Below, piece by piece: positions 2,987-58,717 of a stretch of DNA of 64,000 nucleotides. Position numbers and translations under genes: made by a program. Origin of the DNA: Dehalococcoidia bacterium (GTDB lineage Bacteria > Chloroflexota > Dehalococcoidia > Lucifugimonadales > JAGWBF01); assembly GCA_965248975.1 (NCBI GenBank), contig CBDFKU010000017.1, forward strand, positions 27,236 to 91,235. Reading direction: 5' to 3'. Position 1 is the stretch's first letter; every line of letters starts with the position of its first letter. The notes below the pieces were generated by a model. That model had not been told where the DNA came from. It made no database searches and saw only the letters and a program-made list of their open reading frames with translations.

Positions 2987-4006
2987 TCAGCGCAATTGGA
3001 CAGTTCTGGGTCCGAGAGATTGGGGAGAAGAAGCTCCTGGTTTGAGGGTTTCTCTGACCTCCTGATTGTACCGCCTCCGCCGGTCAAAAGTCTCTCGCTG
3101 TACCTCCTTCCTCTGGGCTAGAATTGCCTCCAGACGGCCTTCCAGCACGTCAGCCGGAGTTACAACCCTCAGCGCCTGATGATATCTTCGGTAGTTGTAG
3201 AACTCGACGAAGTCCCGGATGGCCGCCTCCAGGTCTTCCACCACCTCGTATGGCACCTGGTTAATGTCGTCTTTCAGGGTTCGGTGATATCTCTCCAGCT
3301 TCCCGTTGGTCTGAGGGTGATAGGGTGCTGCCAGGACGTGGCGAATGCCCACCACCCGCATGTACTCGCGGAAGGCCCGCGATACATAACCTGAGCCATT
3401 ATCTGAGAGGAGCTTGGTCCGATCCTCCAGAGGTACATCAGTCATACCAGTAGAGTCAACAGCTTCCTGGACCACCTCTATGAGGGAGTCGGCCGTCATG
3501 TCCTGTTGCACCTTCCAGGCCAAGATGAACCGGGAGTAGTCGTCCATCACCGTCACGAGGTAGTAGTAGCCCCATCCCACTACACGGAAGTAGGAGGCAT
3601 CGGTGGCCCACAGATGGTGGGGCCCTGTGGTCTTGTGCTGGTACTCTTTGCCCGCTGCCAACTGGTATTCGATCCGTTTCACCAGACCCTCCCGTCTCAG
3701 GATACGATAGACTGTGGAGGCGGAGACCGATAGGCCTCTGTGGTCGGTGAGCCAAGCTGCCAACTGCCGGCTTCGCCAGGTCGGCATCTCACGGGCTGCC
3801 GCCAGCACTACTGCCTCCTCTTCTGGATGCAGGCGATTCCAGGGCCTCTCAGTTCCTTCCGTACCCTCCCAACTACCCTGCCGGTGCCTCCACCTCCACC
3901 AATAATACGTGCTCCTGGAAATGCCAAGCTCCCTGAGTCGCCTGTTCTTCCCTCTACCATGTCGCTCCACCTCAGCCACGACCTTCGATTGCTCCACTAC
4001 GCTCAT
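2987..4006 (-). CDS. IS3-family transposase OrfB (DDE/integrase core)
   Basis: HLWATDASYF..YYLVTVMDDYSR..LLSDNGSGYVS..PYHPQTNGKLERYH is a typical rve core. The start ATG overlaps the orfA stop (ATGA). Confidence 0.85.
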   Translation of the reverse strand: MSVVEQSKVVAEVERHGRGKNRRLRELGISRSTYYWWRWRHRQGSWEGTEGTERPWNRLHPEEEAVVLAAAREMPTWRSRQLAAWLTDHRGLSVSASTVYRILRREGLVKRIEYQLAAGKEYQHKTTGPHHLWATDASYFRVVGWGYYYLVTVMDDYSRFILAWKVQQDMTADSLIEVVQEAVDSTGMTDVPLEDRTKLLSDNGSGYVSRAFREYMRVVGIRHVLAAPYHPQTNGKLERYHRTLKDDINQVPYEVVEDLEAAIRDFVEFYNYRRYHQALRVVTPADVLEGRLEAILAQRKEVQRETFDRRRRYNQEVRETLKPGASSPQSLGPRTVQLR

Positions 4007-4135
4007 GCGACGGTGCCGTTGTCGTGTAGGGGCGGCAGAGCTGTTTTTTTGAAGCGGTGCAACTCCAGGGACAACTCACCCACCAGCTGCTTCAGTTCAC
4101 TGTTCTCCCGCTTGAGCTGCTCTATCTCTTGCCGG
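4003..4135 (-). pseudogene. IS3 orfA 3' fragment
   Basis: Encodes ..RQEIEQLKRENSELKQLVGELSLELHRFKKTALPP.., colinear with the intact orfA at 18787-19194. It is cut off from its 5' part by the IS256 element. Confidence 0.75.
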
Positions 4136-5500
4136 AGGTTACGTCAATAGGTGTGTAAACGATATCAGGCGGCGACCTTCTCAGCCGTTGATTCAATGGC
4201 GATTCCATCCGCATACTGTGCACCGAGATAGACGTCTTCGATCAACTCAGGGGCCTTCAGACGCCTGAAGCGCTGTTCGGCGAGCATCAACATTTTCCAG
4301 ATCACCGCTATCGCCCGATCGACCCTCTTGTAGCGCTTGGCGGCATCGGTCCGAAGCCTGAGGGCCGCGAAGGGTGATTCTACCGGGTTCGTCGTGCGAA
4401 GGTGCCCCCAGTGCTCCTTTGGGAAGTCATAGAAGGTGACCATGCGGTCCCAGTCCCGCTCCAAGGCCTCTGAGGCCGCCTCGTAGGAATGGTCGCCGCA
4501 CCACCTGGTGAACACCGTCCTGAGCCGCTCAGCCTCTGTCCGAGTCGGCGCGTAGGGGATAGTACGCAGCATGAGCTTGGCCTGGTCCTGTTGTCGCTTT
4601 GGAAGCTTGGCGAGCACGTTTACGATCTTGTGGTTCCAGCAGCGTTGCTCTGCCGCCTGCGGATAGACGTTGCGCAGAGCTCCCCAGATGCCCAGGTGTC
4701 CGTCTCCAACCACCAGCCTCGGGCAGCTCAAGCCCCGGCGCTTGATGTCCCTGAGCACCTCGGACCAGTTCTCTGTGGACTCCCTGTATCCGGGAACAGC
4801 GCTCACCACCACCTTGCTCCCGTCGCTCAGGGCCGCCATCACCACCAGTACCGCCGCCTTCTCCTTCTCAAGACCAGCCTTGACGTAGACTCCATCCACC
4901 CACATGTAGACCACTTCCAGGTCATCGAGGGGCCGGCTGCGCCATTGGGCAAGCTCATCGTTCCACTTGGACTTCAACCGGGCCACCGTGCTCGCCGATA
5001 CCGGTGCGTCCTCTCCCAGCAGCCCCCGCAAAGCCAGATCGAAGTCGCCTTCGGATAGACCGTGCAGGTACAGCTCGGGGATCAACTCAGCAACCTTCCT
5101 GGTCCTGTTGACGAACAGCGGCAGCAGCCGGCTCTCGAACTGCTCCTCGGTATCGCGGACTCGCGGCCGCCTCAGCTGTATCGTTCCCGAACTCAGCGTA
5201 AGCCTCCGGGCTCTGCCGTATCCGTTCCGATAGCCGGTATCTGAGTCCGAGTCGGATCTGAGCGCCGACTTCGCCCTTCCCAGAAACTCCGTCACCTCCT
5301 CCTCCAGCAACTCCTGGATCAGCCTCTGGACCTGGCTTCGCACCCAATCCTCCAACTGCTCCCACTCCGGCCTTGACTCCGACCTACTCTCAGTGCTTTC
5401 CTTCCTCATGGGCGGTCTATCTCCTCTCTTGGGCCTCGAGCCCGTGTTGTTCAGAGAGAGGGTACACCGCCTGACTGTTTACACACTTTTTGAAGATACC
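4136..5500 (-). mobile_element. IS256-family element inserted into IS3 orfA
   Basis: Imperfect ~30-bp inverted repeats (AGGTTACGTCAATAGGTGTGTAAAC at 4136 against the complement of 5476-5500). It is flanked by the direct repeat TCTCTTGCCGG at 4125-4135 and 5501-5511. Size 1365 bp. Confidence 0.8.
4165..5409 (-). CDS. IS256-family (mutator-type) transposase
   Basis: 414 aa. YRNGYGRARRLTLSSGTIQLRRPRVRD...VYMWVDGVYVK...LVVGDGHLGIWGAL...RCWNHKIVNVL are characteristic IS256 blocks. Confidence 0.85.
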   Translation of the reverse strand: MRKESTESRSESRPEWEQLEDWVRSQVQRLIQELLEEEVTEFLGRAKSALRSDSDSDTGYRNGYGRARRLTLSSGTIQLRRPRVRDTEEQFESRLLPLFVNRTRKVAELIPELYLHGLSEGDFDLALRGLLGEDAPVSASTVARLKSKWNDELAQWRSRPLDDLEVVYMWVDGVYVKAGLEKEKAAVLVVMAALSDGSKVVVSAVPGYRESTENWSEVLRDIKRRGLSCPRLVVGDGHLGIWGALRNVYPQAAEQRCWNHKIVNVLAKLPKRQQDQAKLMLRTIPYAPTRTEAERLRTVFTRWCGDHSYEAASEALERDWDRMVTFYDFPKEHWGHLRTTNPVESPFAALRLRTDAAKRYKRVDRAIAVIWKMLMLAEQRFRRLKAPELIEDVYLGAQYADGIAIESTAEKVAA

Positions 5501-6533: not shown

Positions 6534-6734
6534 GTGTTTTCATTCTTGATGACAGATACAGATCCCGGTCGTGCTGTGGCTCTCAGTGCAGCCGATGACG
6601 GCACAGATACGATCGTTACGGCGCTACGGGTTGCTGGTCAAATAGAGGGTTCTCTCGACGCAAGCCAGAAAGCTGCTATCTTGGCCGACATAGAAACAGC
6701 TCTGAGTGCCATCCGTACCCAAGTGGAGGTGTAG
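6534..6734 (+). CDS. Small phage hypothetical protein
   Basis: GTG 6534 sits 6 nt after AGGAGG (6522-6527). It is tightly packed against the downstream genes. Confidence 0.35.
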   Translation: MFSFLMTDTDPGRAVALSAADDGTDTIVTALRVAGQIEGSLDASQKAAILADIETALSAIRTQVEV

Positions 6735-6736
6735 CG

Positions 6737-7159
6737 ATGCCCTGGGAAGTCGCCTACATAGACAAAGAAACGGACACCCCCCTGGCCGTGCACGTCCATT
6801 CCAATGGCAGCCTGGGGGTACGAAACGTCGATACAGACGCCTACTATTCCTTGACTGCAACTCAGATGTCCAACATTTACAACACCGTTAGAGTCCTGAT
6901 GGAATCCACCCTTCCAGGCCGGATAGCAGGTCTGGGCGGGTTGGTTCTCTCAGGCGGGAAATCTGACATGCCTGTGGCAGGCCAGCCCGGGGGGGAAGAG
7001 CGGTTCTACATAGCCGCCGACGAAGGTAGCTGGTACAGGGACAACGGCTCGTCGTGGGAGCTGATGTTTGGAGCAGATGCAGGGCAGGAAGAACCCTCAC
7101 AGCGCTCCCTGGGGACAGGAAGCCAGAAAGCAGCTGCTGGGGATCATACTCACTACTAG
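6737..7159 (+). CDS. Phage fibre-associated protein ending in the LGTG..AAAGDHTH motif
   Basis: The C-terminus is RSLGTGSQKAAAGDHTHY. The same motif opens the 718-aa protein at 8102. Confidence 0.45.
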   Translation: MPWEVAYIDKETDTPLAVHVHSNGSLGVRNVDTDAYYSLTATQMSNIYNTVRVLMESTLPGRIAGLGGLVLSGGKSDMPVAGQPGGEERFYIAADEGSWYRDNGSSWELMFGADAGQEEPSQRSLGTGSQKAAAGDHTHY

Positions 7160-19194: not shown

Positions 19195-19306
19195 ATCTGC
19201 TCCTTTCTGTGGGTAACTCTACCCTCACTTCAGGAGCTCTCGCCACCCTCCAAACTCTCGGGTTTTCTTACCCTCCGATGTGTCCCATTATCGCTGACGG
19301 CCTACA

Positions 19307-20507
19307 ATTATTTAAGAAATCACTCAAAGTTGCTACCCTTTGGGAAGACAGAATCTACCCAAGGGGTGGCAGTGATGGGACGACGGGAAAAGTATAGGGT
19401 GCGCTTGGACCAGGAAGACTGGGAACAACTCCAGCAATTGATTCGAAGTGGGAAGAGCCGGGCTCGTGTGATGACCCGGGCGAGGATTCTACTAAAGAGC
19501 GATGAGGGTTGGAAGGCTCCCAAGGTGTCTGAGGCCTTGGACGTCTCCGTAGGCACAGTGTTCCGCATCAAGCGGCGTTTCGCTGAAGAGGGCATGAAGG
19601 GGGCTTTGCTGGAAAGGCCCAGGCCCAGGCCACGGAGGAAGCTGGACGACAAGGGAGAGGCCCACCTCATCGCCCTGGCCTGCAGCGCCGCGCCGGAGGG
19701 CCACGACCACTGGACCCTGCGGCTGTTGGCCGGGAAAGTGGTAGAGCTAGGGTTGGTGCCCTCCATGTCCCATGAAGGCATCCGCAAGCGGCTCAAAAAA
19801 ACGTTCTTAAGCCGTGGCAGAAGAAGGAATGGTGTATTCCTAAGGTGAGCGCCGACTTTGTGGCAGCCATGGAGGATGTGCTGGACCTGTATGCCGAGCC
19901 CTATGACCCCCGGCGGCCGGTGGTCTGCTTTGACGAGACCTCGACTCAGCTGTTGAGCGAGCCACGGCCGCCCCTCCCAGCGAAGCCGGGACAGCCGCGG
20001 CGACAGGACTACGAGTACCGAAGGGAGGGCACCCGGAACCTGTTCCTGACCTGCGAGCCGCTGCAGGGCTGGAGACACGTGGCCATCACCCAGCGGCGGA
20101 CCCAGCAGGACTTCGCCCGTCAGATGCGTTGGTTGGTGGATGAGGCCTACCCGGAGGCCCCGGTGGTGCGAGTTGTTCTGGATAACCTGAACACTCATCG
20201 CCCGGCTTCCCTGTACGAGGCCTTTCCTGCCCCTGAGGCCCGGCGTATCGTAAAGCGGCTGGAGTTCCACCACACCCCCAAACACGGCAGTTGGCTCAAC
20301 ATGGCGGAGATCGAGTTCAGCGTCCTGGCCCGATCTTGCCTGAGGAGGCGTGTCCCCGATGAGGCTGCCCTCCGCCGAGAAATTCAGGCCCTGGAGGGGG
20401 AGCGAAACGCCGCCCGAGCCTCTATCCATTGGCGCTTCAACACCCAAGATGCTAGGGCGAAACTCCATCGGCTATATCCTTCAAATCACAGGTTGACTGA
20501 GTACTAG
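19307..20507 (+). mobile_element. IS630-family element, copy A, missing ~27 bp of its transposase-proximal terminus
   Basis: Nearly identical to copy B (36001-37229). The right end ..GGTTGACTGAGTACTAG stops at 20507. The left terminal inverted repeat is replaced by the IS3 copy 2 end. Confidence 0.8.
19375..20507 (+). CDS. IS630-family transposase, expressed through a -1 shift at an A7 tract
   Basis: The HTH part runs from 19375 to the tract at 19795-19801. After a -1 slip the frame reads ..LKKNVLKPWQKKEWCIPKVSADFVAAMEDVLDLY..VVCFDETS..DYEYRREGTRNLF..VVLDNLNTH..FHHTPKHGSWLNMAEIEF. Confidence 0.7.
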
Positions 20508-36000: not shown

Positions 36001-37133
36001 CTAGTACTCAGTCAACCTGTGATTTGAAGGATATAGCCGATGGAGTTTCGCCCTAGCATCTTGGGTGTTGAAGCGCCAATGGATAGAGGCTCGGGCGGCG
36101 TTTCGCTCCCCCTCCAGGGCCTGAATTTCTCGGCGGAGGGCAGCCTCATCGGGGACACGCCTCCTCAGGCAAGATCGGGCCAGGACGCTGAACTCGATCT
36201 CCGCCATGTTGAGCCAACTGCCGTGTTTGGGGGTGTGGTGGAACTCCAGCCGCTTTACGATACGCCGGGCCTCAGGGGCAGGAAAGGCCTCGTACAGGGA
36301 AGCCGGGCGATGAGTGTTCAGGTTATCCAGAACAACTCGCACCACCGGGGCCTCCGGGTAGGCCTCATCCACCAACCAACGCATCTGACGGGCGAAGTCC
36401 TGCTGGGTCCGCCGCTGGGTGATGGCCACGTGTCTCCAGCCCTGCAGCGGCTCGCAGGTCAGGAACAGGTTCCGGGTGCCCTCCCTTCGGTACAAAGTAG
36501 TCCTGTCGCCGCGGCTGTCCCGGCTTCGCTGGGAGGGCGGCCGTGGCTCGCTCAACAGCTGAGTCGAGGTCTCGTCAAAGCAGACCACCGGCCGCCGGGG
36601 GTCATAGGGCTCGGCATACAGGTCCAGCACATCCTCCATGGCTGCCACAAAGTCGGCGCTCACCTTAGGAATACACCATTCCTTCTTCTGCCACGGCTTA
36701 AGAACGTTTTTTTGAGCCGCTTGCGGATGCCTTCATGGGACATGGAGGGCACCAACCCTAGCTCTACCACTTTCCCGGCCAACAGCCGCAGGGTCCAGTG
36801 GTCGTGGCCATCCGGCGCGGCGCTGCAGGCCAGGGCGATGAGGTGGGCCTCTCCCTTGTCGTCCAGCTTCCTCCGTGGCCTGGGCCTGGGCCTTTCCAGC
36901 AAAGCCCCCTTCATGCCCTCTTCAGCGAAACGCCGCTTGATGCGGAACACTGTGCCTACGGAGACGTCCAAGGCCTCAGACACCTTGGGAGCCTTCCAAC
37001 CCTCATCGCTCTTTAGTAGAATCCTCGCCCGGGTCATCACACGAGCCCGGCTCTTCCCACTTCGAATCAATTGCTGGAGTTGTTCCCGGTCTTCCTGGTC
37101 CAAGCGCACCCTATACTTTTCCCGTCGTCCCAT
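36001..37133 (-). pseudogene. IS630 transposase of copy B, with a 17-codon out-of-frame patch relative to copy A
   Basis: It has the same A7 tract (36707-36713). One C is deleted and GAG is replaced by TTTG. This turns ..PPLPAKPGQPRRQDYEYRREG.. into ..PPSQRSRDSRGDRTTLYRREG.. Confidence 0.6.
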
Positions 37134-37229
37134 CACTGCCACCCCTTGGGTAGATTCTGTCTTCCCAAAGGGTAGCAACTTTGAGTGATTTCTTAAATAA
37201 TTACCAACACCGAGTTGACTGAGTACTAG
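36001..37229 (-). mobile_element. IS630-family element, copy B, complete
   Basis: Perfect 16-bp terminal inverted repeats: CTAGTACTCAGTCAAC at 36001-36016 against GTTGACTGAGTACTAG at 37214-37229. Both termini contain TA at the ends, consistent with a TA target duplication. Confidence 0.85.
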
Positions 37230-38331: not shown

Positions 38332-39003
38332 CTAACTGTAGACCTTCCAGTCGGTCGGGATGGGGTTGGAGATCCACCCCTTGCTGAGGGCGATGGTCAC
38401 CGCGTGCGTCCTGTCGTTGACATCCAGCTTCCGAAGGATCGAGGTCACGTGGTTCTTTACCGTCTGATCGGTGATCTCCAGGTCCTGCGCTATCTCTTTG
38501 TTGCTCAAGCCCGCCGCGGCCAGCTCTAGGACCTCGACCTCGCGGCCGGATAGTGCCCTCCCGGTCTGCCCGGGCCTCTGGAGCCCGTACAGGAGGTTGG
38601 TGATGACGCTGGTGTCCACAGGAGTGCCGCCTTGGACGACCTGATGGATGGCGTTTACTATCTCTTCCCGGTTGCCCTTCTTGAGGAGGAACCCATCGGC
38701 TCCTGCCTCGATGGCGGCCCCAAGAAACTCTTCCCCGTACGAGGTCAGCATGATCACCTTCAGGTGGGGATAGGAGATCTTAATCCTTCTAAGGGTCTCA
38801 ATGCCGTCGATGCCCCCGAGCCGGGCGTCCAGGAGGATTACATCGGTAGCGACACCCTGTAGCAAAGACAGGGCATCCTCACCGCTGGATGCGTCCCCCA
38901 CGACGCAGAACTGCTCCTCCTGCTCCAGCATCCGCCGCAGGCCTTCGCACACTACGTAGTGGTCGTCTACCAGAAAAATGCGGATCTCTTTCTCTAGCAT
39001 CAT
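38332..39003 (-). CDS. NarL/FixJ(LuxR)-family response regulator
   Basis: Receiver domain (IRIFLVDDHYVV..DVILLDARLGGIDG..KVIMLTS) plus a LuxR HTH (LSGREVEVLELAAAGLSNKEIAQDLEITDQTVKNHVTSILRKL). Start ATG 39003 lies 1 nt after the kinase stop. Confidence 0.9.
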   Translation of the reverse strand: MMLEKEIRIFLVDDHYVVCEGLRRMLEQEEQFCVVGDASSGEDALSLLQGVATDVILLDARLGGIDGIETLRRIKISYPHLKVIMLTSYGEEFLGAAIEAGADGFLLKKGNREEIVNAIHQVVQGGTPVDTSVITNLLYGLQRPGQTGRALSGREVEVLELAAAGLSNKEIAQDLEITDQTVKNHVTSILRKLDVNDRTHAVTIALSKGWISNPIPTDWKVYS

Positions 39004-39004
39004 G

Positions 39005-40537
39005 TCACCTCGGCTCCAAGGTGAACTCTTTGTGGGATCCCCCGGTGTATCCCAGCTCCCCTTCGGCCGGACCGGGAGCATCCGAGCAGGGGATGAGGAG
39101 GGTTATCTGGGTGCCTATCTCTGGAGTGGACTGAATCCCCAGGGTGCCGCCGAGCATATACGCTCGCTCCTCCATCCCCGCCAGTCCGAGCTGACCGTTG
39201 GCGACCAGGCGGCTATCGTCGACCTCGAAACCAATCCCGTTGTCGATGACGGTCGCCCAGAGGGATTTGTTGTTGTACAGGCCGATATCCAGATTTACCT
39301 CGGTAGCCCTCGAGTGTTTCCGGGCGTTGGAGAGGGCCTCCTGGACTACCCGGTAGGTCGCCAACTCGGCGAGGGGAGCGAGACGGGGCACCTCTCCGTG
39401 TTCGCGGAATTGGGTGAGGATGCCGGTGTCCCGTTCGAAGGCGTCGGCGTATCTGGCGAGGGCTTTCACCAGGCCGACTCTCTCCAGCTCAGGTGGGTAC
39501 AGAGCCGCGGCGGTATGGCGCAACTCCTCCAGGCTCCGCCCCAGTGAGCTCTGGATATCCTCCAGTTCCTTACCGGCCCGGGCCGCCTCGCCCCGGTGGA
39601 AAAATCCGATACAGGTCTCAACGTGGTACAGGGCACTGGTGAGCCACTGGACAGGGGAGTCGTGGAGCTCCATGGCCAGCCTCTTGCGCTCATCCTCTCG
39701 GGCCGAAACCGATCTGTCCAGCAGCAGCTCTAGGCGACTCTGCTGAGAGGCCACGTTGGCGAAGAGGCCGGCGTTGGACACCCACATGGCCGTATGGCTG
39801 GCCGCCATCTGAAGCAGCTCCAGGTCTTCGCGGGAATAAGGCTCACTGCTGCGCTTGTGGGAGAGGGTGAGAACGCCCGCCAGGTCTTCCCTGTGCTTCA
39901 GCGGAATCAGTATGTCGATACGGGAGCTTTGAAGGTCTGCTAGCTCCTGGTGGGACATTGGTAGGAAGCCGGAGTCGCTCTCCAGGTCCTCACGCCTGAG
40001 GGATTCGTTGTGGAACCGCATCCAGGTCACGATCGGGCTGGTGGCTTCCAACTGAAGAGGGTCCGACGACTTGGAGGCCCTGTCCGACACTGAGGTGAAC
40101 CTGAGCCCGTTGCCTTGGGGGACCAGCAGACGAACATCTTCCGCGCCGGTGGCCAGGATAATGGACTGCTCGACGGTGAGCCCCAACATCTTCAGGTCAG
40201 TGATGTCCTTGGCGTACCGGGCGAAGTTTTTGACAGCACGAAGGTAATCGTAGCGGGTCCGCAGAAGCCAAGAGTCTACGAGCTTCTGGGTACCGTCTCT
40301 AACCGGCTTGGCCAGGGCCACTACTGCGATCACCGCAACCAGTGTCGCGGGCCAAGAGAAACTGAAGGGGCCCTTGAGAAGGACGGCGTTGAGGGAGACG
40401 AAAAGCGAAAGATAGACGCCCATCAAGGCAACTATCGTCCCTCCCCACACCAAGCCCTTCGCCATGGCCACTCTGACATCGAGGAGGCGAGGTCTTACGA
40501 TCATCGGGTCCTCCAGGTGTCTCGTCCAGATCAGCAC
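39005..40537 (-). CDS. Membrane sensor histidine kinase with a GAF-like domain, HisKA_3 type
   Basis: N-terminal hydrophobic helices, a central GAF-like region, the H-box ERKRLAMELHDSPVQ, and the ATPase motifs EALSNARKH and DNGIGF. The start may be internal. Confidence 0.85.
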   Translation of the reverse strand: MLIWTRHLEDPMIVRPRLLDVRVAMAKGLVWGGTIVALMGVYLSLFVSLNAVLLKGPFSFSWPATLVAVIAVVALAKPVRDGTQKLVDSWLLRTRYDYLRAVKNFARYAKDITDLKMLGLTVEQSIILATGAEDVRLLVPQGNGLRFTSVSDRASKSSDPLQLEATSPIVTWMRFHNESLRREDLESDSGFLPMSHQELADLQSSRIDILIPLKHREDLAGVLTLSHKRSSEPYSREDLELLQMAASHTAMWVSNAGLFANVASQQSRLELLLDRSVSAREDERKRLAMELHDSPVQWLTSALYHVETCIGFFHRGEAARAGKELEDIQSSLGRSLEELRHTAAALYPPELERVGLVKALARYADAFERDTGILTQFREHGEVPRLAPLAELATYRVVQEALSNARKHSRATEVNLDIGLYNNKSLWATVIDNGIGFEVDDSRLVANGQLGLAGMEERAYMLGGTLGIQSTPEIGTQITLLIPCSDAPGPAEGELGYTGGSHKEFTLEPR

Positions 40538-40699
40538 AATGCGGTCTGGATGATATCACGAGTCAGCAGATTTTTCAAGTCTGATATCGACGTAAACGTT
40601 CACGCCCTAACGTGCTTGGCGTCGATAACAGTAAAAATCTAAGACATTTCTTATATTTTTCAAAAAGTGCCGTCGGGTTGCCCATGCTTTGACACCCAC

Positions 40700-40766
40700 A
40701 TTTTGGAGAGGTGCCCTCAGGACCTGCATCCAGCAAAAGTCCTAATTCGATATGGGCCAAAAGTAC
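40700..40766 (-). promoter_or_regulatory. Copy A of the shared 44-nt module plus a -10-like element, facing the kinase/regulator operon
   Basis: The reverse complement of 40723-40766 is GTACTTTTGGCCCATATCGAATTAGGACTTTTGCTGGATGCAGG. CAAAAT lies 18 nt downstream (reverse strand, 40700-40705). Confidence 0.4.
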
Positions 40767-41126
40767 TATTCCCGGGGCTCTGCCGTAGCTGGCGAAGAGT
40801 GTCGGAAAACCCTCGTGGCCTGGTACATCCGGCCCAATCGGGTAACGGATTCTACCGGCCGCCCGGCCCGTGCTCCCGGATCTTGCGCGAGTATACCATC
40901 AGCGAAACCGCATTCTTCCTGTATGGTCATCCGGACCGATCCCCGCAGCCATTCCTTAAATCGAAATGCCGAGAAGATGCCGGAGACGCCCAGACGATGG
41001 CGGTCACCGATATATCACATCTAAATCACATGGCGAAGAACTCCCCTCGAAGAGTGTGCTTGTAGACGTTCCAGAGAGCAATCGGGAGCCGTTAGACCGA
41101 CCTCGTCGCTCACGACTCTGGCCGTG

Positions 41127-41192
41127 GTACTTTTGGACTAATCAATATTGGGACTTTAGCATGATGTCAGCGGTTGGTTGCGCCTCTATAAT
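41127..41192 (+). promoter_or_regulatory. Copy C of the shared module plus TATAAT, upstream of the ftsZ-like gene
   Basis: GTACTTTTGGACTAATCAATATTGGGACTTTAGCATGATGTCAG (41127-41170). ATGTCA, 17 nt, then TATAAT (41187-41192). Confidence 0.45.
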
Positions 41193-41281
41193 TTTGCCTG
41201 ATCACCAGAGTTGGTCGCGGCGTCCTGATTCCCACCATTATTGTTCATTTCGTCAGGGAATCGGCACCAGGGAGCGGGGCG

Positions 41282-42304
41282 ATGGCTGAGGCGAAAGAAG
41301 TCCGTGACGATATGAACGTAGCCAATGGAGATCGGAGCTGGCATATTGGCCAGCCCCCCTTGCTGGTTCCTTGCCGCCGGGCGTTGACCAAAATCAAGGT
41401 GGTCGGCGTCGGTGACGGAGGGTGTACCTGTGTCGCGCTCACGTCCGAGTACGATTTGCCCGGGGTCCAGTACGCCCTGGTCAACACTCGCGTCGATCTC
41501 CAGCGTGGGTTCGTCAATGTTCCGGAGGTTGTCCAGATCGGGCAACGAGTAGCCAGCGGTTTCGGAGCCGCCCGCTACTCCCGAGTGACCGAGCTGACCA
41601 TCGAGGACTCGGACGCCCAGCTCAGGAGCGTGCTGGAGGACGCCGAGCTGGTGCTGGTTACCACCGGTCTGGGCGGAGCAACCGGGACCAGGGCGGCGCC
41701 ATACGTGGCAGCCCTCGCCAGAGAGATGGGGGCCTTTGTCCTGGGGGTTGTCACCACTCCCTTCAGCTTCGAAGGCAGTCGCAGGATCGGGGAAGCCGTG
41801 GCCGGCCTGGCCCAACTGCGATCCTGTGTGGACAATGTCATCGTGATTCACAGCGATCGCCTGCTTCGCTTCATCAATCGCGACGCCGAAATAGCGGACG
41901 CCTTCGACAAGGCCAACGAAGTTGTGAGTCAAGGATTGCTGAGTATATCCGGGTTGCTTAACGAGCCCGGAGAGCTGGGCGCGGACTTCGAGGATGTCCG
42001 CACCGTTCTGGGATATCCCGGAGGTATGCTTATGGCGGTCGGGCGCGGTAGGGGACAGTCGGGACTCGTGGAGGCGGCCCAGGAGGCTATAGCTTATCCA
42101 CTGCTGAACCTGTCGATGGCGGGGGCCCGGGGGATTATCCTCTTTATTAAAGGCGGCCAGGACCTGACTCCCGCCGCAGTTGACGCGGCCAGCGCCTTCA
42201 TAAGCAAGGCTTGTAAACATAACCCTCGCACCCTGTTTGGCATGTCTATCGACCGTGGCCTGGGCGATAGGGTACAGCTCACGTTGATCGCCACCGGATT
42301 GTAA
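41282..42304 (+). CDS. FtsZ-like paralogue with degenerate nucleotide-binding loops and no C-terminal tail
   Basis: Colinear with the downstream FtsZ over the whole globular core. GVGDGGCT replaces GVGGGGCN, NTR replaces NTD, GFGAARYSRVT replaces GWGAGGDAKIG, and GGATGTR replaces GGGTGTG. It ends at ..LIATGL. Confidence 0.75.
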   Translation: MAEAKEVRDDMNVANGDRSWHIGQPPLLVPCRRALTKIKVVGVGDGGCTCVALTSEYDLPGVQYALVNTRVDLQRGFVNVPEVVQIGQRVASGFGAARYSRVTELTIEDSDAQLRSVLEDAELVLVTTGLGGATGTRAAPYVAALAREMGAFVLGVVTTPFSFEGSRRIGEAVAGLAQLRSCVDNVIVIHSDRLLRFINRDAEIADAFDKANEVVSQGLLSISGLLNEPGELGADFEDVRTVLGYPGGMLMAVGRGRGQSGLVEAAQEAIAYPLLNLSMAGARGIILFIKGGQDLTPAAVDAASAFISKACKHNPRTLFGMSIDRGLGDRVQLTLIATGL

Positions 42305-42323
42305 GCCGATTTCGAAGGTCATA

Positions 42324-42390
42324 GTACTTTTGGTCTATCAGAAATTAGGACTTTTGCAGGATGTCAGGCACGATGCAGCGTCCCTAGAAT
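42324..42390 (+). promoter_or_regulatory. Copy B of the shared module plus TAGAAT, upstream of ftsZ
   Basis: GTACTTTTGGTCTATCAGAAATTAGGACTTTTGCAGGATGTCAG (42324-42367). ATGTCA, 18 nt, then TAGAAT (42385-42390). Confidence 0.45.
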
Positions 42391-42454: not shown

Positions 42455-43561
42455 ATGACTAGTACTAATGGAGACGGAAGAGGAAAAGTGGACGGCGCAG
42501 CGGTCCAGGAGGTGATTAACGAAAGCTACGAGCACCAGGCTCCGGCCCCGGCCCCGGAGCAGAGTCCTTGGGAGCGAGCACCTGCTCGCATCAAGGTGAT
42601 CGGAGTCGGCGGCGGTGGCTGTAACTGCGTCCGACGCATGGTGGACCACCACGTGCCGGGTGTTGAGTACGTCATGGTCAACACTGACGTCAAGTCCCTG
42701 CAGGCCGCCTCCCACGTAAGCGAGGTCGTGCAGATCGGACAGAAAGTGACCCGTGGCTGGGGCGCCGGCGGCGACGCCAAGATCGGTGAAAAGGCCGCCG
42801 AGGAGTCCGCAAGTCAGCTCAGGAATTCCCTGAAGAACGCCGAGTTGGTGTTCATAACGTCGGGCATGGGCGGCGGAACCGGAACGGGCGCCGCTCCCTA
42901 CGTGGCTCACCTGGCCAAAGAGATGGGCGCTCTGGTCGTGGGCGTGGTGACGACCCCCTTCAGCTTCGAGGGGAGCCGTCGCATAGGCGAGGCCATCGCG
43001 GGTGTCTCACGGCTTCGCCCTTTTGTTGACAACCTGATCGTGATCCACAATGATCGCCTGCTACAGTACGTTAGCCACGATGCCGAAATGATCGACGCCT
43101 TCAAGACGGCCGACGAAGTCGTCACCCAGGGCATCCTGAGCGTGTCGGAGCTGATCAACGTACCCGGCGAGATCAACGTGGACTTCGCCGATGTCCGCTC
43201 CATCATGCTCCATCCCGGCGGGGCTCTGATGGCGATCGGACGAGGCAACGGGAAGATGGGTGCGCTGGAAGCCGCCAGTCAGGCGATAGCCAACCCGCTG
43301 CTGAACCTGTCGATCAAGGGCGCCGAGGGTGTACTGTTCTCGGTCCAGGGCGGACGAGAGTTGACCCTGGGTGGGGTGAACGCCGCCGGAGAGATGATCT
43401 CCAAGTCCGTCAAGAAGGACGCCTCGATCTTCTTCGGCATGTCGATCCAGGAGGACCTGGAAGACTCGGTGAAGCTCACCATGATCGCCACGGGGCTCAA
43501 GGACAAGGATTTCATGGGAGCCATGTCCGGCAAAGTGAAGGGCTTCCTGGGCAAGAGATAG
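42455..43561 (+). CDS. ftsZ: Cell division GTPase FtsZ
   Basis: IKVIGVGGGGCNCV, NTD, GAGGDAKIG, the tubulin signature GGGTGTGAAP, PFSFEG and the T7 loop NVDFADV are all present. The tail is short and ends in GFLGKR. Confidence 0.95.
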   Translation: MTSTNGDGRGKVDGAAVQEVINESYEHQAPAPAPEQSPWERAPARIKVIGVGGGGCNCVRRMVDHHVPGVEYVMVNTDVKSLQAASHVSEVVQIGQKVTRGWGAGGDAKIGEKAAEESASQLRNSLKNAELVFITSGMGGGTGTGAAPYVAHLAKEMGALVVGVVTTPFSFEGSRRIGEAIAGVSRLRPFVDNLIVIHNDRLLQYVSHDAEMIDAFKTADEVVTQGILSVSELINVPGEINVDFADVRSIMLHPGGALMAIGRGNGKMGALEAASQAIANPLLNLSIKGAEGVLFSVQGGRELTLGGVNAAGEMISKSVKKDASIFFGMSIQEDLEDSVKLTMIATGLKDKDFMGAMSGKVKGFLGKR

Positions 43562-46247: not shown

Positions 46248-46333
46248 TGGTGCCGAAGGTCGGAGTCGAACCGACACGGGGTTGCCCCCAACGGTTTTTG
46301 AGACCGTCGCGTCTACCATTCCGCCACTTCGGC
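46248..46333 (-). tRNA. tRNA-Leu (anticodon CAA), with encoded CCA
   Basis: The reverse strand is GCCGAAGTGGCGGAATGGTAGACGCGACGGTCTCAAAAACCGTTGGGGGCAACCCCGTGTCGGTTCGACTCCGACCTTCGGCACCA. It has a 7-bp acceptor stem, the anticodon loop CUCAAAA and a long variable arm. Confidence 0.9.
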
Positions 46334-55535: not shown

Positions 55536-58598
<3,063 letters not shown>

Positions 58599-58642
58599 AC
58601 GCTAAAAACTCCGAAACACAACTTCCCTGTTCTCTGATTCGC

Positions 58643-58717
58643 CGCGGGGTGGAGCAGTGGCAGCTCGTCGGGCTCATAACCCGAAGGTCGTTGGTTCGAG
58701 TCCAACCCCCGCTACCA
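58643..58717 (+). tRNA. Initiator tRNA-fMet (anticodon CAU), with encoded CCA
   Basis: CGCGGGGTGGAGCAGTGGCAGCTCGTCGGGCTCATAACCCGAAGGTCGTTGGTTCGAGTCCAACCCCCGCTACCA. It has the C1:U72 mismatch and three G-C pairs closing the anticodon stem. Confidence 0.9.

What the first reader, a model, noticed from the sequence alone, without database searches (positions are those of the whole stretch)
40700..42390. A shared 44-nt promoter-proximal module links a two-component system to two tandem ftsZ genes
Three segments are roughly 77-80% identical without gaps:
- 41127-41170 (+)
- 42324-42367 (+)
- the reverse complement of 40723-40766

The consensus is GTACTTTTGG-N14-GGACTTTTGC-N-GGATGYCAG. This gives two ACTTTTG half-sites exactly 24 nt apart.

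In each copy the 3' end (ATGTCA or ATGCAG) sits 17-18 nt upstream of a -10-like hexamer. The hexamers are TATAAT (41187), TAGAAT (42385) and CAAAAT (reverse strand, 40700).

Each copy points into a different transcription unit:
- the GAF histidine kinase / NarL-type regulator operon
- the degenerate ftsZ-like gene
- ftsZ itself

The TACTTTT half-site is reminiscent of the heptamers bound by NarL/FixJ-type regulators. One reading is an autoregulated two-component system that directly controls both ftsZ genes. I know of no description of such a dedicated sensory circuit.
Basis: partly seen in the sequence, partly recalled or inferred. Interest (0 to 1): 0.75.

Follow-up and report, generated by a model that had tools for sequence, protein, structure and literature searches.

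The report
Conserved two-box operator at ftsZ promoters
In an uncultured Dehalococcoidia lineage, the same conserved two-box DNA motif sits just upstream of the promoters of ftsZ, of a tail-less ftsZ copy and (in some genomes) of the neighbouring sensor-kinase/regulator operon, which suggests but does not prove that this sensor system switches the cell-division genes on.

Summary
Three copies of the module lie at the stated coordinates (3 found, 0.19 expected by chance). A scoring matrix trained only on other genomes gives them 54-64 bits, and nothing else in the 64 kb rises above background.

The module is not a dispersed repeat. It is a conserved promoter-proximal operator made of two 12-nt direct repeats (T-R-G-K-A-C-T-T-T-W-G-S) 22-24 nt apart. 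The proximal box abuts a weak -35 (GATGYC), followed 17-18 nt later by a conserved -10.

Copies A and B are orthologously conserved in front of the ftsZ-like gene and ftsZ in all nine related tandem-ftsZ loci examined, while the surrounding DNA is unalignable. They derive from an old 1197-bp tandem duplication.

Copy C, upstream of the two-component (sensor kinase/regulator) operon, exists only in a subclade. Elsewhere that operon has only a separate conserved sigma-70-type promoter.

The membrane GAF/HisKA_3 kinase and NarL-type regulator stay linked to the ftsZ pair through rearrangements. The box resembles the half-site of the mycobacterial regulator DosR/DevR (GGGACTTT), and the layout resembles tandem DevR promoters.

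That the adjacent regulator binds the module is the best inference (about 0.5) but remains unproven. Response-regulator control of ftsZ already has precedents (RcsB, GluR).

The parts
38332..39003 (-). NarL/FixJ-type response regulator (REC + GerE helix-turn-helix), 223 aa. Recognition helix ITDQTVKNHVTSILRKL; conserved C-terminal extension GWISNPIPxxWKxY.
   Evidence: Pfam hits. No NCBIfam equivalog reaches its cut-off. Best solved structures are VraR, NarL, DesR and DevR. Orthologues are 64-70% identical and keep the recognition helix.
39005..40504 (-). Sensor histidine kinase, 499 aa: two N-terminal hydrophobic helices, GAF, HisKA_3, HATPase_c. The likely true start is the ATG at 40504, preceded by GGAGGA.
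   Evidence: Pfam; translation; the gene call P0121 is 499 aa. The family is narrow (65 hits at E<=1e-30), named only in Dehalococcoidia, and has longer relatives with a 7-transmembrane N-terminus.
40550..40578 (-). P2, a conserved sigma-70-type promoter of the kinase operon: TTGAAA, 17 nt, (TGa)TATCAT, with an AT-rich stretch upstream (about 40580-40680).
   Evidence: Promoter scan (10 of 12, with TG extension). The same TTGAAA-17-TAnnnT is conserved at this position in L001, L003, L009, L010 and L023.
40700..40768 (-). Module C plus promoter P1, reading toward the kinase gene. Distal box TAGTACTTTTGG 40768-40757; proximal box TAGGACTTTTGC 40744-40733; weak -35 ATGCAG 40729-40724; -10 CAAAAT 40705-40700.
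   Evidence: Orthologous copies in L001/L005 and L003 have -10 CACAAT / TAGAAT at the same distance. A 75-nt inverted similarity (71%) to the ftsZ promoter region extends through the -10 (I1, I3).
41125..41192 (+). Module A plus the promoter of the ftsZ-like gene. Distal box TGGTACTTTTGG 41125-41136; proximal box TGGGACTTTAGC 41149-41160; -35-like ATGTCA 41164-41169; -10 TATAAT 41187-41192.
   Evidence: Conserved in L001, L003, L004, L009, L010 and L023 (alignment A5).
41282..42304 (+). ftsZ-like paralogue, 340 aa. It ends at ...LIATGL with no C-terminal linker or tail, and its GTPase motifs are altered: T1 GGGGCN to GDGGCT, T3 GAGGD degenerate, T4 GTGTG to GTGTR, T7 NDRLL to SDRLL.
   Evidence: Pfam. 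TIGR00065 score of 240 bits is below the 295 cut-off. Alignment with 5 orthologues and 6 canonical FtsZ.
42322..42390 (+). Module B plus the promoter of ftsZ. Distal box TAGTACTTTTGG 42322-42333; proximal box TAGGACTTTTGC 42346-42357; -35-like ATGTCA 42361-42366; -10 TAGAAT 42385-42390. It starts 17 nt after the ftsZ-like stop codon.
   Evidence: Conserved in 8 other loci (alignment A4). The invariant columns are the two boxes, GATG, the -10, the ribosome-binding site and the ATG.
42455..43561 (+). Canonical ftsZ, 368 aa, with a short C-terminal tail.
   Evidence: Pfam. TIGR00065 score of 366 bits is above the cut-off. Alignment.

Best explanation
The 44-nt module is a promoter-proximal operator. 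It holds two 12-nt direct repeats (T-R-G-K-A-C-T-T-T-W-G-S) whose starts are 22-24 nt apart. Their centres lie roughly at -45 and -69 from the predicted transcription start. The proximal box abuts a poor -35 (GATGYC), followed 17-18 nt later by a good sigma-A-type -10.

The most likely binder is the phosphorylated NarL-family response regulator encoded next door (38332-39003). It would receive its phosphate from the membrane-anchored GAF/HisKA_3 kinase.

Bound at both boxes, the regulator would compensate for the weak -35 and recruit RNA polymerase. This is class-II-like activation, as DevR does from tandem boxes centred at -42.5 and -63.5. It would raise transcription of the tail-less ftsZ-like gene and of ftsZ.

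In the subclade that includes the window, the regulator would also drive its own operon from an extra upstream promoter (P1), on top of the constitutive promoter P2. That gives positive feedback.

What is shown: the module, its conservation, the promoter geometry and the gene linkage. What is inferred: the identity of the binder, the direction of the effect (activation) and the signal.
For: 1. Non-chance and unique. 3 sites against 0.19 expected. Matrix scores of 54-64 bits with nothing else in 64 kb.
2. Not dispersed. A strict-pattern scan of 185,579 species genomes hit only one Dehalococcoidia genome, at the three orthologous sites. The only other hits were two coding-sequence matches in Bathyarchaeia.
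3. Phylogenetic footprint. In promoter alignments from 7-9 genomes (FtsZ-like proteins only 51-63% identical), the invariant columns are the two boxes, GATG, the -10 and the ribosome-binding site. The spacers and flanks are free to vary.
4. Orthologous copies resemble each other more than they resemble the paralogous copies. The three copies have therefore been maintained separately.
5. Gene linkage survives rearrangement. The two-component system is divergent upstream in the window, L001/L005, L003, L009 (an insertion sequence, IS, lies in between) and L010 (a lactamase_B gene inserted between the two ftsZ genes). It is downstream and co-directional in L023. None of the 7 contigs with the 7-transmembrane type do. 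The 7-transmembrane loci L011 and L024 are not near ftsZ and have no module.
6. A copy sits in front of the two-component operon itself in three genomes.
7. Box chemistry fits the regulator family. ATT(G/A)GGACTTTAG matches the left half of the DosR/DevR box TTSGGGACTWWAG (PMC2275270). In L015 the two box types form a DosR-like palindrome, TGGGACTTTAGTACC, upstream of ftsZ.
8. The layout fits too. DevR promoters need at least two tandem boxes close to the -35 (PMC3177182). The regulator keeps the equivalents of DosR K182 and N183 in its recognition helix (PMC13486717).
9. Weak -35 hexamers paired with near-consensus -10 hexamers suggest dependence on an activator.
Against: - No binding or expression data exist. 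All genomes involved are uncultured metagenome-assembled genomes.
- The boxes are direct repeats 22-24 bp apart. They are not the inverted repeats usual for NarL-family dimers, and the spacing is off the 21-bp helical phase shown to matter for DevR.
- The recognition helix (QTVKNH) is equally close to Listeria DegU (best solved DNA-binding-domain hit), which has a different specificity. It therefore does not discriminate.
- Copy C is missing in L009, L010 and L023.
- Related boxes occur before single ftsZ genes with no two-component system within the fetched flanks (L018, L015, L014).
- L004 keeps degenerate modules although no two-component system is adjacent.
- If ftsZ is essential and has only module-type promoters, the two-component system would have to be essential or constitutively active.
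Confidence: 0.5

Rival explanations
1. The module is a genuine operator, but for a different, unlinked transcription factor, for example a cell-cycle or growth-rate regulator of Dehalococcoidia. The two-component operon would then be only a co-regulated neighbour. In one subclade it acquired an inverted copy of the ftsZ promoter.
For: - Two-box or related sites precede single ftsZ genes with no two-component system in the fetched flanks. L018 (SAR202-type) has GAACTTTTC and GTACTTTTT boxes whose starts are 23 nt apart. L015 has a palindrome plus a degenerate box. L014 has a single box at the same 37-nt distance from the -10.
- L004 retains modules without an adjacent two-component system.
- Copy C looks like an inverted duplication of promoter B that runs through the -10 (75 nt, 71%, I1).
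- Direct repeats at 22-24 bp are atypical for NarL-family dimers.
Against: The two-component system is the only gene set that stays next to the ftsZ pair through inversions, IS insertions and gene insertions. The box core matches NarL-family half-sites (PMC2275270). No other candidate regulator is conserved in the neighbourhood.
Confidence: 0.3
2. The boxes are intrinsic promoter elements read by RNA polymerase itself, for example through the alpha C-terminal domains or a lineage-specific sigma region. They would mark a strong 'ftsZ-type' promoter with no dedicated regulator.
For: The position is fixed relative to the -10: 37 +/- 1 nt from the proximal box. The boxes are T-rich on the non-template strand. 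The module was inherited together with the promoter in the duplications.
Against: - UP-type elements are A/T tracts without invariant G/C positions. Here G, A-C and G-(C/G) are invariant.
- The lineage's own strong promoter P2 uses TTGAAA plus a plain AT-rich upstream stretch and has no boxes.
- No other promoter in 64 kb of window and roughly 190 kb of fetched loci carries the boxes.
- The geometry does not fit a sigma-54 promoter (GG to GC is 24 nt, not 12), and the boxes do not form a -35/-10 pair (read directly from the sequence).
Confidence: 0.1
3. The similarity is only a relic of local duplications (tandem for A/B, inverted for C) and the boxes have no function of their own.
For: Several repeat families, including the promoter, share the 1197-bp period (D1-D4). 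C aligns with B over 75 nt.
Against: The paralogous proteins have diverged to 53% identity, and the orthologous intergenic DNA is unalignable outside the boxes and the -10. Yet the boxes are invariant or nearly so in 9 loci. Neutral relics would have decayed.
Confidence: 0.03
4. The module acts at the RNA level, as a structured leader or processing site in read-through transcripts.
For: Copy B lies 17 nt after the ftsZ-like stop codon with no terminator between, so it would be transcribed by read-through from promoter A.
Against: - Folding is no better than shuffles (z = +1.40, +1.29, -0.51).
- The consensus structure over 9 orthologues has -0.55 kcal/mol and no covariation support.
- No Rfam match.
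- Copies A and C lie upstream of any predicted start.
Confidence: 0.02

Closest known systems
DevR/DosR-DevS/DosT dormancy regulon promoters of Mycobacterium tuberculosis
   Same: - A NarL-family regulator paired with a GAF-containing HisKA_3 kinase.
- Half-site core GGGACTTT. The window's proximal box ATTGGGACTTTAG matches TTSGGGACTWWAG (PMC2275270).
- At least two tandem boxes are required, with the proximal one next to or overlapping the -35 (centres -42.5 and -63.5; PMC3177182).
- The equivalents of recognition residues K182 and N183 are kept (PMC13486717).
   Different: - The boxes here are direct repeats with no palindromic right half.
- The spacing is 22-24 bp, not 21.
- The distal box has T where DevR needs the essential G5.
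- The kinase has two transmembrane helices and a single GAF domain, and does not hit the DosS/DosT GAF structures.
- The regulator is closer to VraR, NarL and DesR than to DevR.
- The targets are ftsZ genes, not dormancy genes.
Response-regulator control of ftsZ/ftsA promoters: RcsB at ftsA1p in E. coli; GluR at the ftsA and ftsZ promoters in Burkholderia glumae
   Same: A two-component response regulator binds upstream of cell-division genes and changes ftsZ transcription. RcsB is also a NarL/FixJ-family protein (PMC8281045 and Carballes 1999, cited there).
   Different: In those systems the regulators are pleiotropic or unlinked to ftsZ, and ftsZ lies within the dcw cluster. Here the two-component system is physically linked to a stand-alone, duplicated ftsZ pair. 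All known copies of the site (3 per genome at strict stringency) lie in this one locus.
Autoregulated two-component operons with a constitutive plus an inducible promoter (for example phoPQ P2/P1; my own knowledge)
   Same: The kinase operon has a conserved sigma-70-type promoter (P2). In the window's subclade it also has an upstream module-dependent promoter (P1).
   Different: P1 appears to have arisen by inverted duplication of the ftsZ promoter, and it is absent from sister lineages.
Truncated FtsZ paralogues lacking the C-terminal linker and peptide (Agrobacterium FtsZ1, Sinorhizobium FtsZ2, Magnetospirillum FtsZm)
   Same: A second FtsZ ending right after the globular core, encoded alongside an essential full-length FtsZ (bioRxiv 10.1101/412759).
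   Different: Here the paralogue sits in tandem directly upstream of ftsZ and shares its operator. Its GTP-binding and hydrolysis motifs are also altered. Its role was not tested.

Membership tests
NarL/FixJ (LuxR-type HTH) response regulators | N-terminal receiver domain plus C-terminal GerE/LuxR helix-turn-helix | tested here: met
   PF00072 (2e-27) and PF00196 (5e-20). Best solved structures are VraR, NarL, DesR and DevR.
HisKA_3 (NarX/DesK/LiaS-type) histidine kinases | HisKA_3 dimerisation/phosphoacceptor domain followed by HATPase_c | tested here: met
   PF07730 and PF02518, plus a GAF domain. Solved-structure hits are VraS and DesK.
DevRS/DosRST system (membership) | Soluble kinase with tandem heme-binding GAF domains; regulator orthologous to DevR | tested here: not met
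   The kinase has two N-terminal hydrophobic helices and one GAF domain, and has no hit to DosS/DosT structures. DevR ranks 7th among regulator hits. No NCBIfam equivalog reaches its cut-off.
DevRS/DosRST system (membership) | 18-20-bp palindromic Dev box (TTSGGGACTWWAGTCCCSAA) | tested here: not met
   Only the left half is matched. The right half is conserved as WGC-NN-GATG, not AGTCCC. A true palindrome, TGGGACTTTAGTACC, is seen only in the relative L015.
Sigma-70-type promoter | -35 and -10 hexamers 16-18 nt apart, conserved in position across relatives | tested here: met
   The scan finds A (10 of 12) and B (9 of 12). C has ATGCAG-18-CAAAAT, below the scan threshold, but the -10 (nAnAAT) is conserved in position in L001 and L003. 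Transcription starts were not mapped.
Dispersed intergenic repeat (REP/MITE-like) | Many copies at unrelated loci in one genome | tested here: not met
   Only 3 copies in 64 kb. In the one species-representative genome that matches, only the 3 orthologous sites are hit. There are no extra copies in roughly 190 kb of related loci.
Tandem segmental duplication | Colinear similarity of gene plus upstream region at one fixed period | tested here: met
   Repeat families D1-D3 (coding and promoter), and a pair of copies in D4, all have a 1197-nt spacing. Identity at that offset is 0.55-0.74 across the coding region.
FtsZ (TIGR00065 equivalog) | Score above the curated cut-off; intact GTPase motifs and a C-terminal tail | tested here: inconclusive
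   ftsZ at 42455-43561 meets it (366 bits against 295). The ftsZ-like gene at 41282-42304 does not (240 bits). It has altered T1, T3, T4 and T7 motifs and no tail.
Structured cis-regulatory RNA (Rfam) | Match to a covariance model, or conserved structure with covariation | tested here: not met
   Searches give no relevant match. Searches show no stability or covariation.

The most novel reading that the evidence does not exclude
A compact, vertically conserved 'division-control cassette' exists in a Dehalococcoidia lineage. A membrane GAF sensor kinase and its NarL-type regulator are dedicated almost exclusively to the transcription of ftsZ and of a tail-less, GTPase-altered FtsZ paralogue. 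They act through a two-box direct-repeat operator. Division would thus be gated by an environmental or metabolic signal at the level of ftsZ dosage, with positive feedback in some genomes.
Probability: 0.35. Interest if true: 0.65.

Novelty: new member of a known kind. Interest (0 to 1): 0.5.

Why it matters
Nothing is known about how uncultured Dehalococcoidia regulate cell division. In the loci examined here ftsZ stands alone, without ftsA or ftsQ neighbours. A conserved operator shared by ftsZ, a tail-less FtsZ paralogue and a linked sensor system gives a concrete regulatory hypothesis. It can be tested with recombinant protein and synthetic DNA, without culturing the organism. If the regulator binds, this would be a rare case of a two-component system whose known targets are essentially the ftsZ genes themselves. 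It would also be a clean example of a regulator operon acquiring feedback by copying its target's promoter.

Tried and rejected
- **Dispersed repeat:** rejected.
- **RNA element:** rejected. There are no Rfam hits, folding z-scores are +1.4, +1.3 and -0.5, and the consensus fold has no support.
- **Sigma-54 promoter, or the boxes as a -35/-10 pair:** the spacings do not fit (reading).
- **MraZ-type repeats:** considered from memory (short repeats at about a 10-nt period) and rejected on spacing.
- **Membership in DevRS:** rejected.
- **Using the recognition helix to predict specificity:** not discriminating. The best DNA-binding-domain match is Listeria DegU (7x1k, PMC9263151).
- **A module near the 7-transmembrane relatives of the kinase (L011, L024):** none found, so there was no independent tie between motif and regulator family.
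- **Look-ups that returned nothing:** four homologues (P0002, P0004, P0005, P0009) had no record.
- **Literature:** a search for Dehalococcoidia ftsZ paralogues or regulation found nothing specific.
Full report
**1. Observation**

Ungapped identities are A-B 35/44, B-C 34/44 and A-C 29/44.

A search for ACTTTTG-N17-ACTTTWG with up to two mismatches returns only these three sites. Shuffles give 0.19 expected, and none of 100 shuffles reaches three.

I trained a two-part weight matrix only on sites from other genomes. It scores the window sites 54-64 bits. The next independent position is at shuffle level, about 3 bits or less. A single-box matrix picks out the six boxes at 18.6-21.6 bits, with the next hit at 14.3.

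The promoter scan independently reports ATGTCA-17-TATAAT at 41164-41192 and ATGTCA-18-TAGAAT at 42361-42390. Copy C has ATGCAG-18-CAAAAT on the minus strand.

**2. Surroundings**

Pfam confirms four genes:
- a REC+GerE regulator (38332-39003, minus strand);
- a GAF+HisKA_3+HATPase kinase (39005-40504, minus strand), whose real start is the ATG at 40504 behind GGAGGA and which has two N-terminal hydrophobic helices;
- two Tubulin+FtsZ_C proteins.

The upstream FtsZ copy scores 240 bits on TIGR00065 (cut-off 295). The downstream one scores 366.

The ftsZ-like gene plus its promoter and ftsZ plus its promoter form a tandem duplication with a 1197-nt period. Several repeat families, including the 51-nt one that contains the module, share that spacing, and identity at that offset is 0.55-0.74 through the coding region. 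A and B are therefore paralogous promoters.

Copy C aligns in inverted orientation with the B region over 75 nt, through the -10 (I1). This suggests an inverted promoter duplication.

**3. Relatives**

Homologues of the ftsZ-like protein and of the kinase are named, where a source names them, only in Chloroflexota/Dehalococcoidia metagenome-assembled genomes. The kinase family is narrow, with 65 hits at E<=1e-30.

I obtained nine further tandem-ftsZ loci.
- **L001/L005/L008** (one species; L005 and L008 come from a species-representative Dehalococcoidia genome) and **L003** have the window's exact layout and all three module copies. Their -10 hexamers sit at the same distance.
- **L009 and L010** keep the divergent two-component system and modules A and B, but lack copy C.
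- **L023** has modules A and B with the two-component system downstream on the same strand.
- **L004**, which is rich in insertion sequences (IS), has no adjacent two-component system and somewhat degenerate modules.
- **L012 and L013**, short metagenome contigs, show the end of the ftsZ-like gene, then module B, then ftsZ.

In alignments of the B promoters (9 loci) and A promoters (7 loci), the invariant columns are the two boxes, GATG, the -10, the ribosome-binding site and the ATG. The spacer between the boxes and all flanks vary freely. The proteins themselves are only 51-63% identical to the window's ftsZ-like protein.

Orthologous copies share spacer features with each other, not with their paralogues. 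The copies have therefore been kept separately by selection and not homogenised.

The refined box is T-R-G-K-A-C-T-T-T-W-G-S. Start-to-start spacing is 24 nt in most copies, 23 in some and 22 in L023 B. The distance from the proximal box to the -10 is 37 +/- 1 nt.

**4. Not a generic repeat**

I scanned 185,579 species-representative genomes with GTACTTTTGG-N13-14-GGACTTTNGC. It hit one Dehalococcoidia genome, at precisely the three orthologous sites. The only other hits were two Bathyarchaeia matches inside a conserved coding region.

No additional module occurs in the window or in roughly 190 kb of fetched loci. This rules out a REP/MITE-like element. It cannot exclude a modest regulon elsewhere in these genomes.

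**5.

Close to the kinase start there is a conserved TTGAAA-17-(TGn)TAnnnT promoter with an AT-rich upstream stretch (window 40578-40550). It is present in every lineage, including those without copy C.

In the window's subclade, then, the kinase operon has a constitutive-looking P2 plus an upstream module-type P1.

**6. Who binds?**

The two-component system is the only conserved neighbour of the ftsZ pair. It remains linked through an inversion or relocation (L023), an IS insertion (L009) and a gene insertion (L010).

None of the seven contigs with the longer 7-transmembrane type do. Two 7-transmembrane loci that I fetched are not near ftsZ and have no module.

The regulators of module-bearing genomes are 65-70% identical and keep nearly the same recognition helix, I(T/A)(D/E)QTVKNH.

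The box core fits the family. The published DosR/DevR consensus is TTSGGGACTWWAGTCCCSAA (PMC2275270), and copy A reads ATTGGGACTTTAG. DevR promoters always carry at least two tandem boxes, for example centred at -42.5 and -63.5, with G5 and C7 essential (PMC3177182). DosR reads GGGACT through K179, K182 and N183 (PMC13486717), and the window regulator keeps the K and N equivalents.

In L015, a single-ftsZ relative, the two box types form a DosR-like palindrome, TGGGACTTTAGTACC. Its GTAC arm starts 24 nt upstream of a degenerate proximal box.

Several points weigh against a firm assignment:
- The window boxes are direct repeats, not inverted ones.
- The 22-24 bp spacing is off the 21-bp phase.
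- The distal box has T at the 'essential G' position.
- The same recognition helix occurs in Listeria DegU, the top DNA-binding-domain hit (PMC9263151).
- The regulator is overall closer to VraR, NarL and DesR than to DevR.
- Box-like sites precede single ftsZ genes without a two-component system in the fetched flanks (L018, L015, L014).

I therefore put the 'adjacent regulator binds' reading at about 0.5. An unlinked factor gets about 0.3, a polymerase-intrinsic element about 0.1, and the remaining readings are below 0.05.

**7. Rejected readings**

An RNA element is rejected: there are no Rfam hits, folding is no better than shuffles, and the consensus structure has no support. The geometry does not fit a sigma-54 promoter or a -35/-10 pair. 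A neutral duplication relic is contradicted by the footprint.

**8. Comparison with known systems and novelty**

The system works like a NarL-family, DevR-style tandem-box activator promoter with optional positive autoregulation. It is not a member of the DevRS family: the kinase architecture, the palindrome and the orthology tests all fail.

Response-regulator control of ftsZ transcription is known: RcsB at ftsA1p in E. coli, and GluR binding the ftsA and ftsZ promoters in Burkholderia glumae (PMC8281045).

Tail-less FtsZ paralogues are also known, in Agrobacterium, Sinorhizobium and Magnetospirillum (bioRxiv 10.1101/412759).

What appears undescribed is the conserved cassette: linked two-component system, tail-less FtsZ and FtsZ, all sharing one two-box operator, in Dehalococcoidia. 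My literature searches found nothing on it.

I classify it as a new member of a known kind: a predicted response-regulator regulon. Interest is moderate (0.5). The prediction is clean, conserved and directly testable with recombinant protein, but the key mechanistic claim is still inference.

Noticed in passing
window 19306-20507 and 36001-37202: Two copies of a roughly 1.2-kb element in inverted orientation, identical apart from a 41-nt gap between the two aligned arms (668 + 493 nt). They bracket about 15.5 kb. Each carries a 382-aa ORF (36040-37188) with no Pfam or NCBIfam match. This could be an uncharacterised insertion sequence forming a composite-transposon-like structure, or an assembly duplication.
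   Followed up: partly
window 41282-42304 and orthologues in L001, L003, L004, L009, L010, L023: The ftsZ-like paralogue always ends at ...LIATGL with no linker or C-terminal peptide. It has altered T1, T3, T4 and T7 GTPase motifs, yet is kept as an intact ORF in at least 7 genomes. It may be a non-hydrolysing modulator or cap of FtsZ filaments.
   Followed up: partly
L009 5107-6321 (with module A at 6493-6461 and the ftsZ-like gene at 3999-4940): A Transposase_mut IS element sits between module A and the ftsZ-like gene, cutting the gene off from its promoter. This is also the most degenerate ftsZ-like copy (313 aa, with a deletion in the T3 region). It may be on its way to becoming a pseudogene.
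   Followed up: no
window 40550-40680 (minus strand): A conserved sigma-70-type promoter (TTGAAA-17-TGaTATCAT) with an AT-rich upstream stretch lies directly before the kinase gene. It is present in all related loci and is independent of the module.
   Followed up: yes
window 55536-58599, 58643-58714 and 46251-46333: A 23S rRNA gene with no 16S rRNA gene and no 5S rRNA match anywhere in the window, followed directly by a tRNA. The rRNA genes appear to be unlinked. A second tRNA lies at 46251-46333 (minus strand).
   Followed up: no
L003 5827 and 5860 (minus strand): Two extra GGACTTTCGGGC half-sites in reverse orientation lie just upstream of module A in L003. They could be additional binding sites in the divergent intergenic region.
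   Followed up: no
L006 3848-3880 and L007 473-441: The strict module pattern also matches inside what appears to be a conserved coding region (not checked by translation) of two Bathyarchaeia genomes. The flanks are similar between the two and there is no promoter context, so I take these as chance matches.
   Followed up: partly
L011 about 6700-6760: Upstream of the 7-transmembrane-type kinase operon there is an inverted repeat, GTACCCGC-N13-GCGGGTAC. It shares only the GTAC core with the boxes. It might be that paralogous regulator's own site.
   Followed up: no
window 52944 (+): An isolated box-like sequence, TAGTACTTGTGG (14.3 bits), is the best single-box hit outside the three modules. 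It has no partner box, and I did not examine its context.
   Followed up: no
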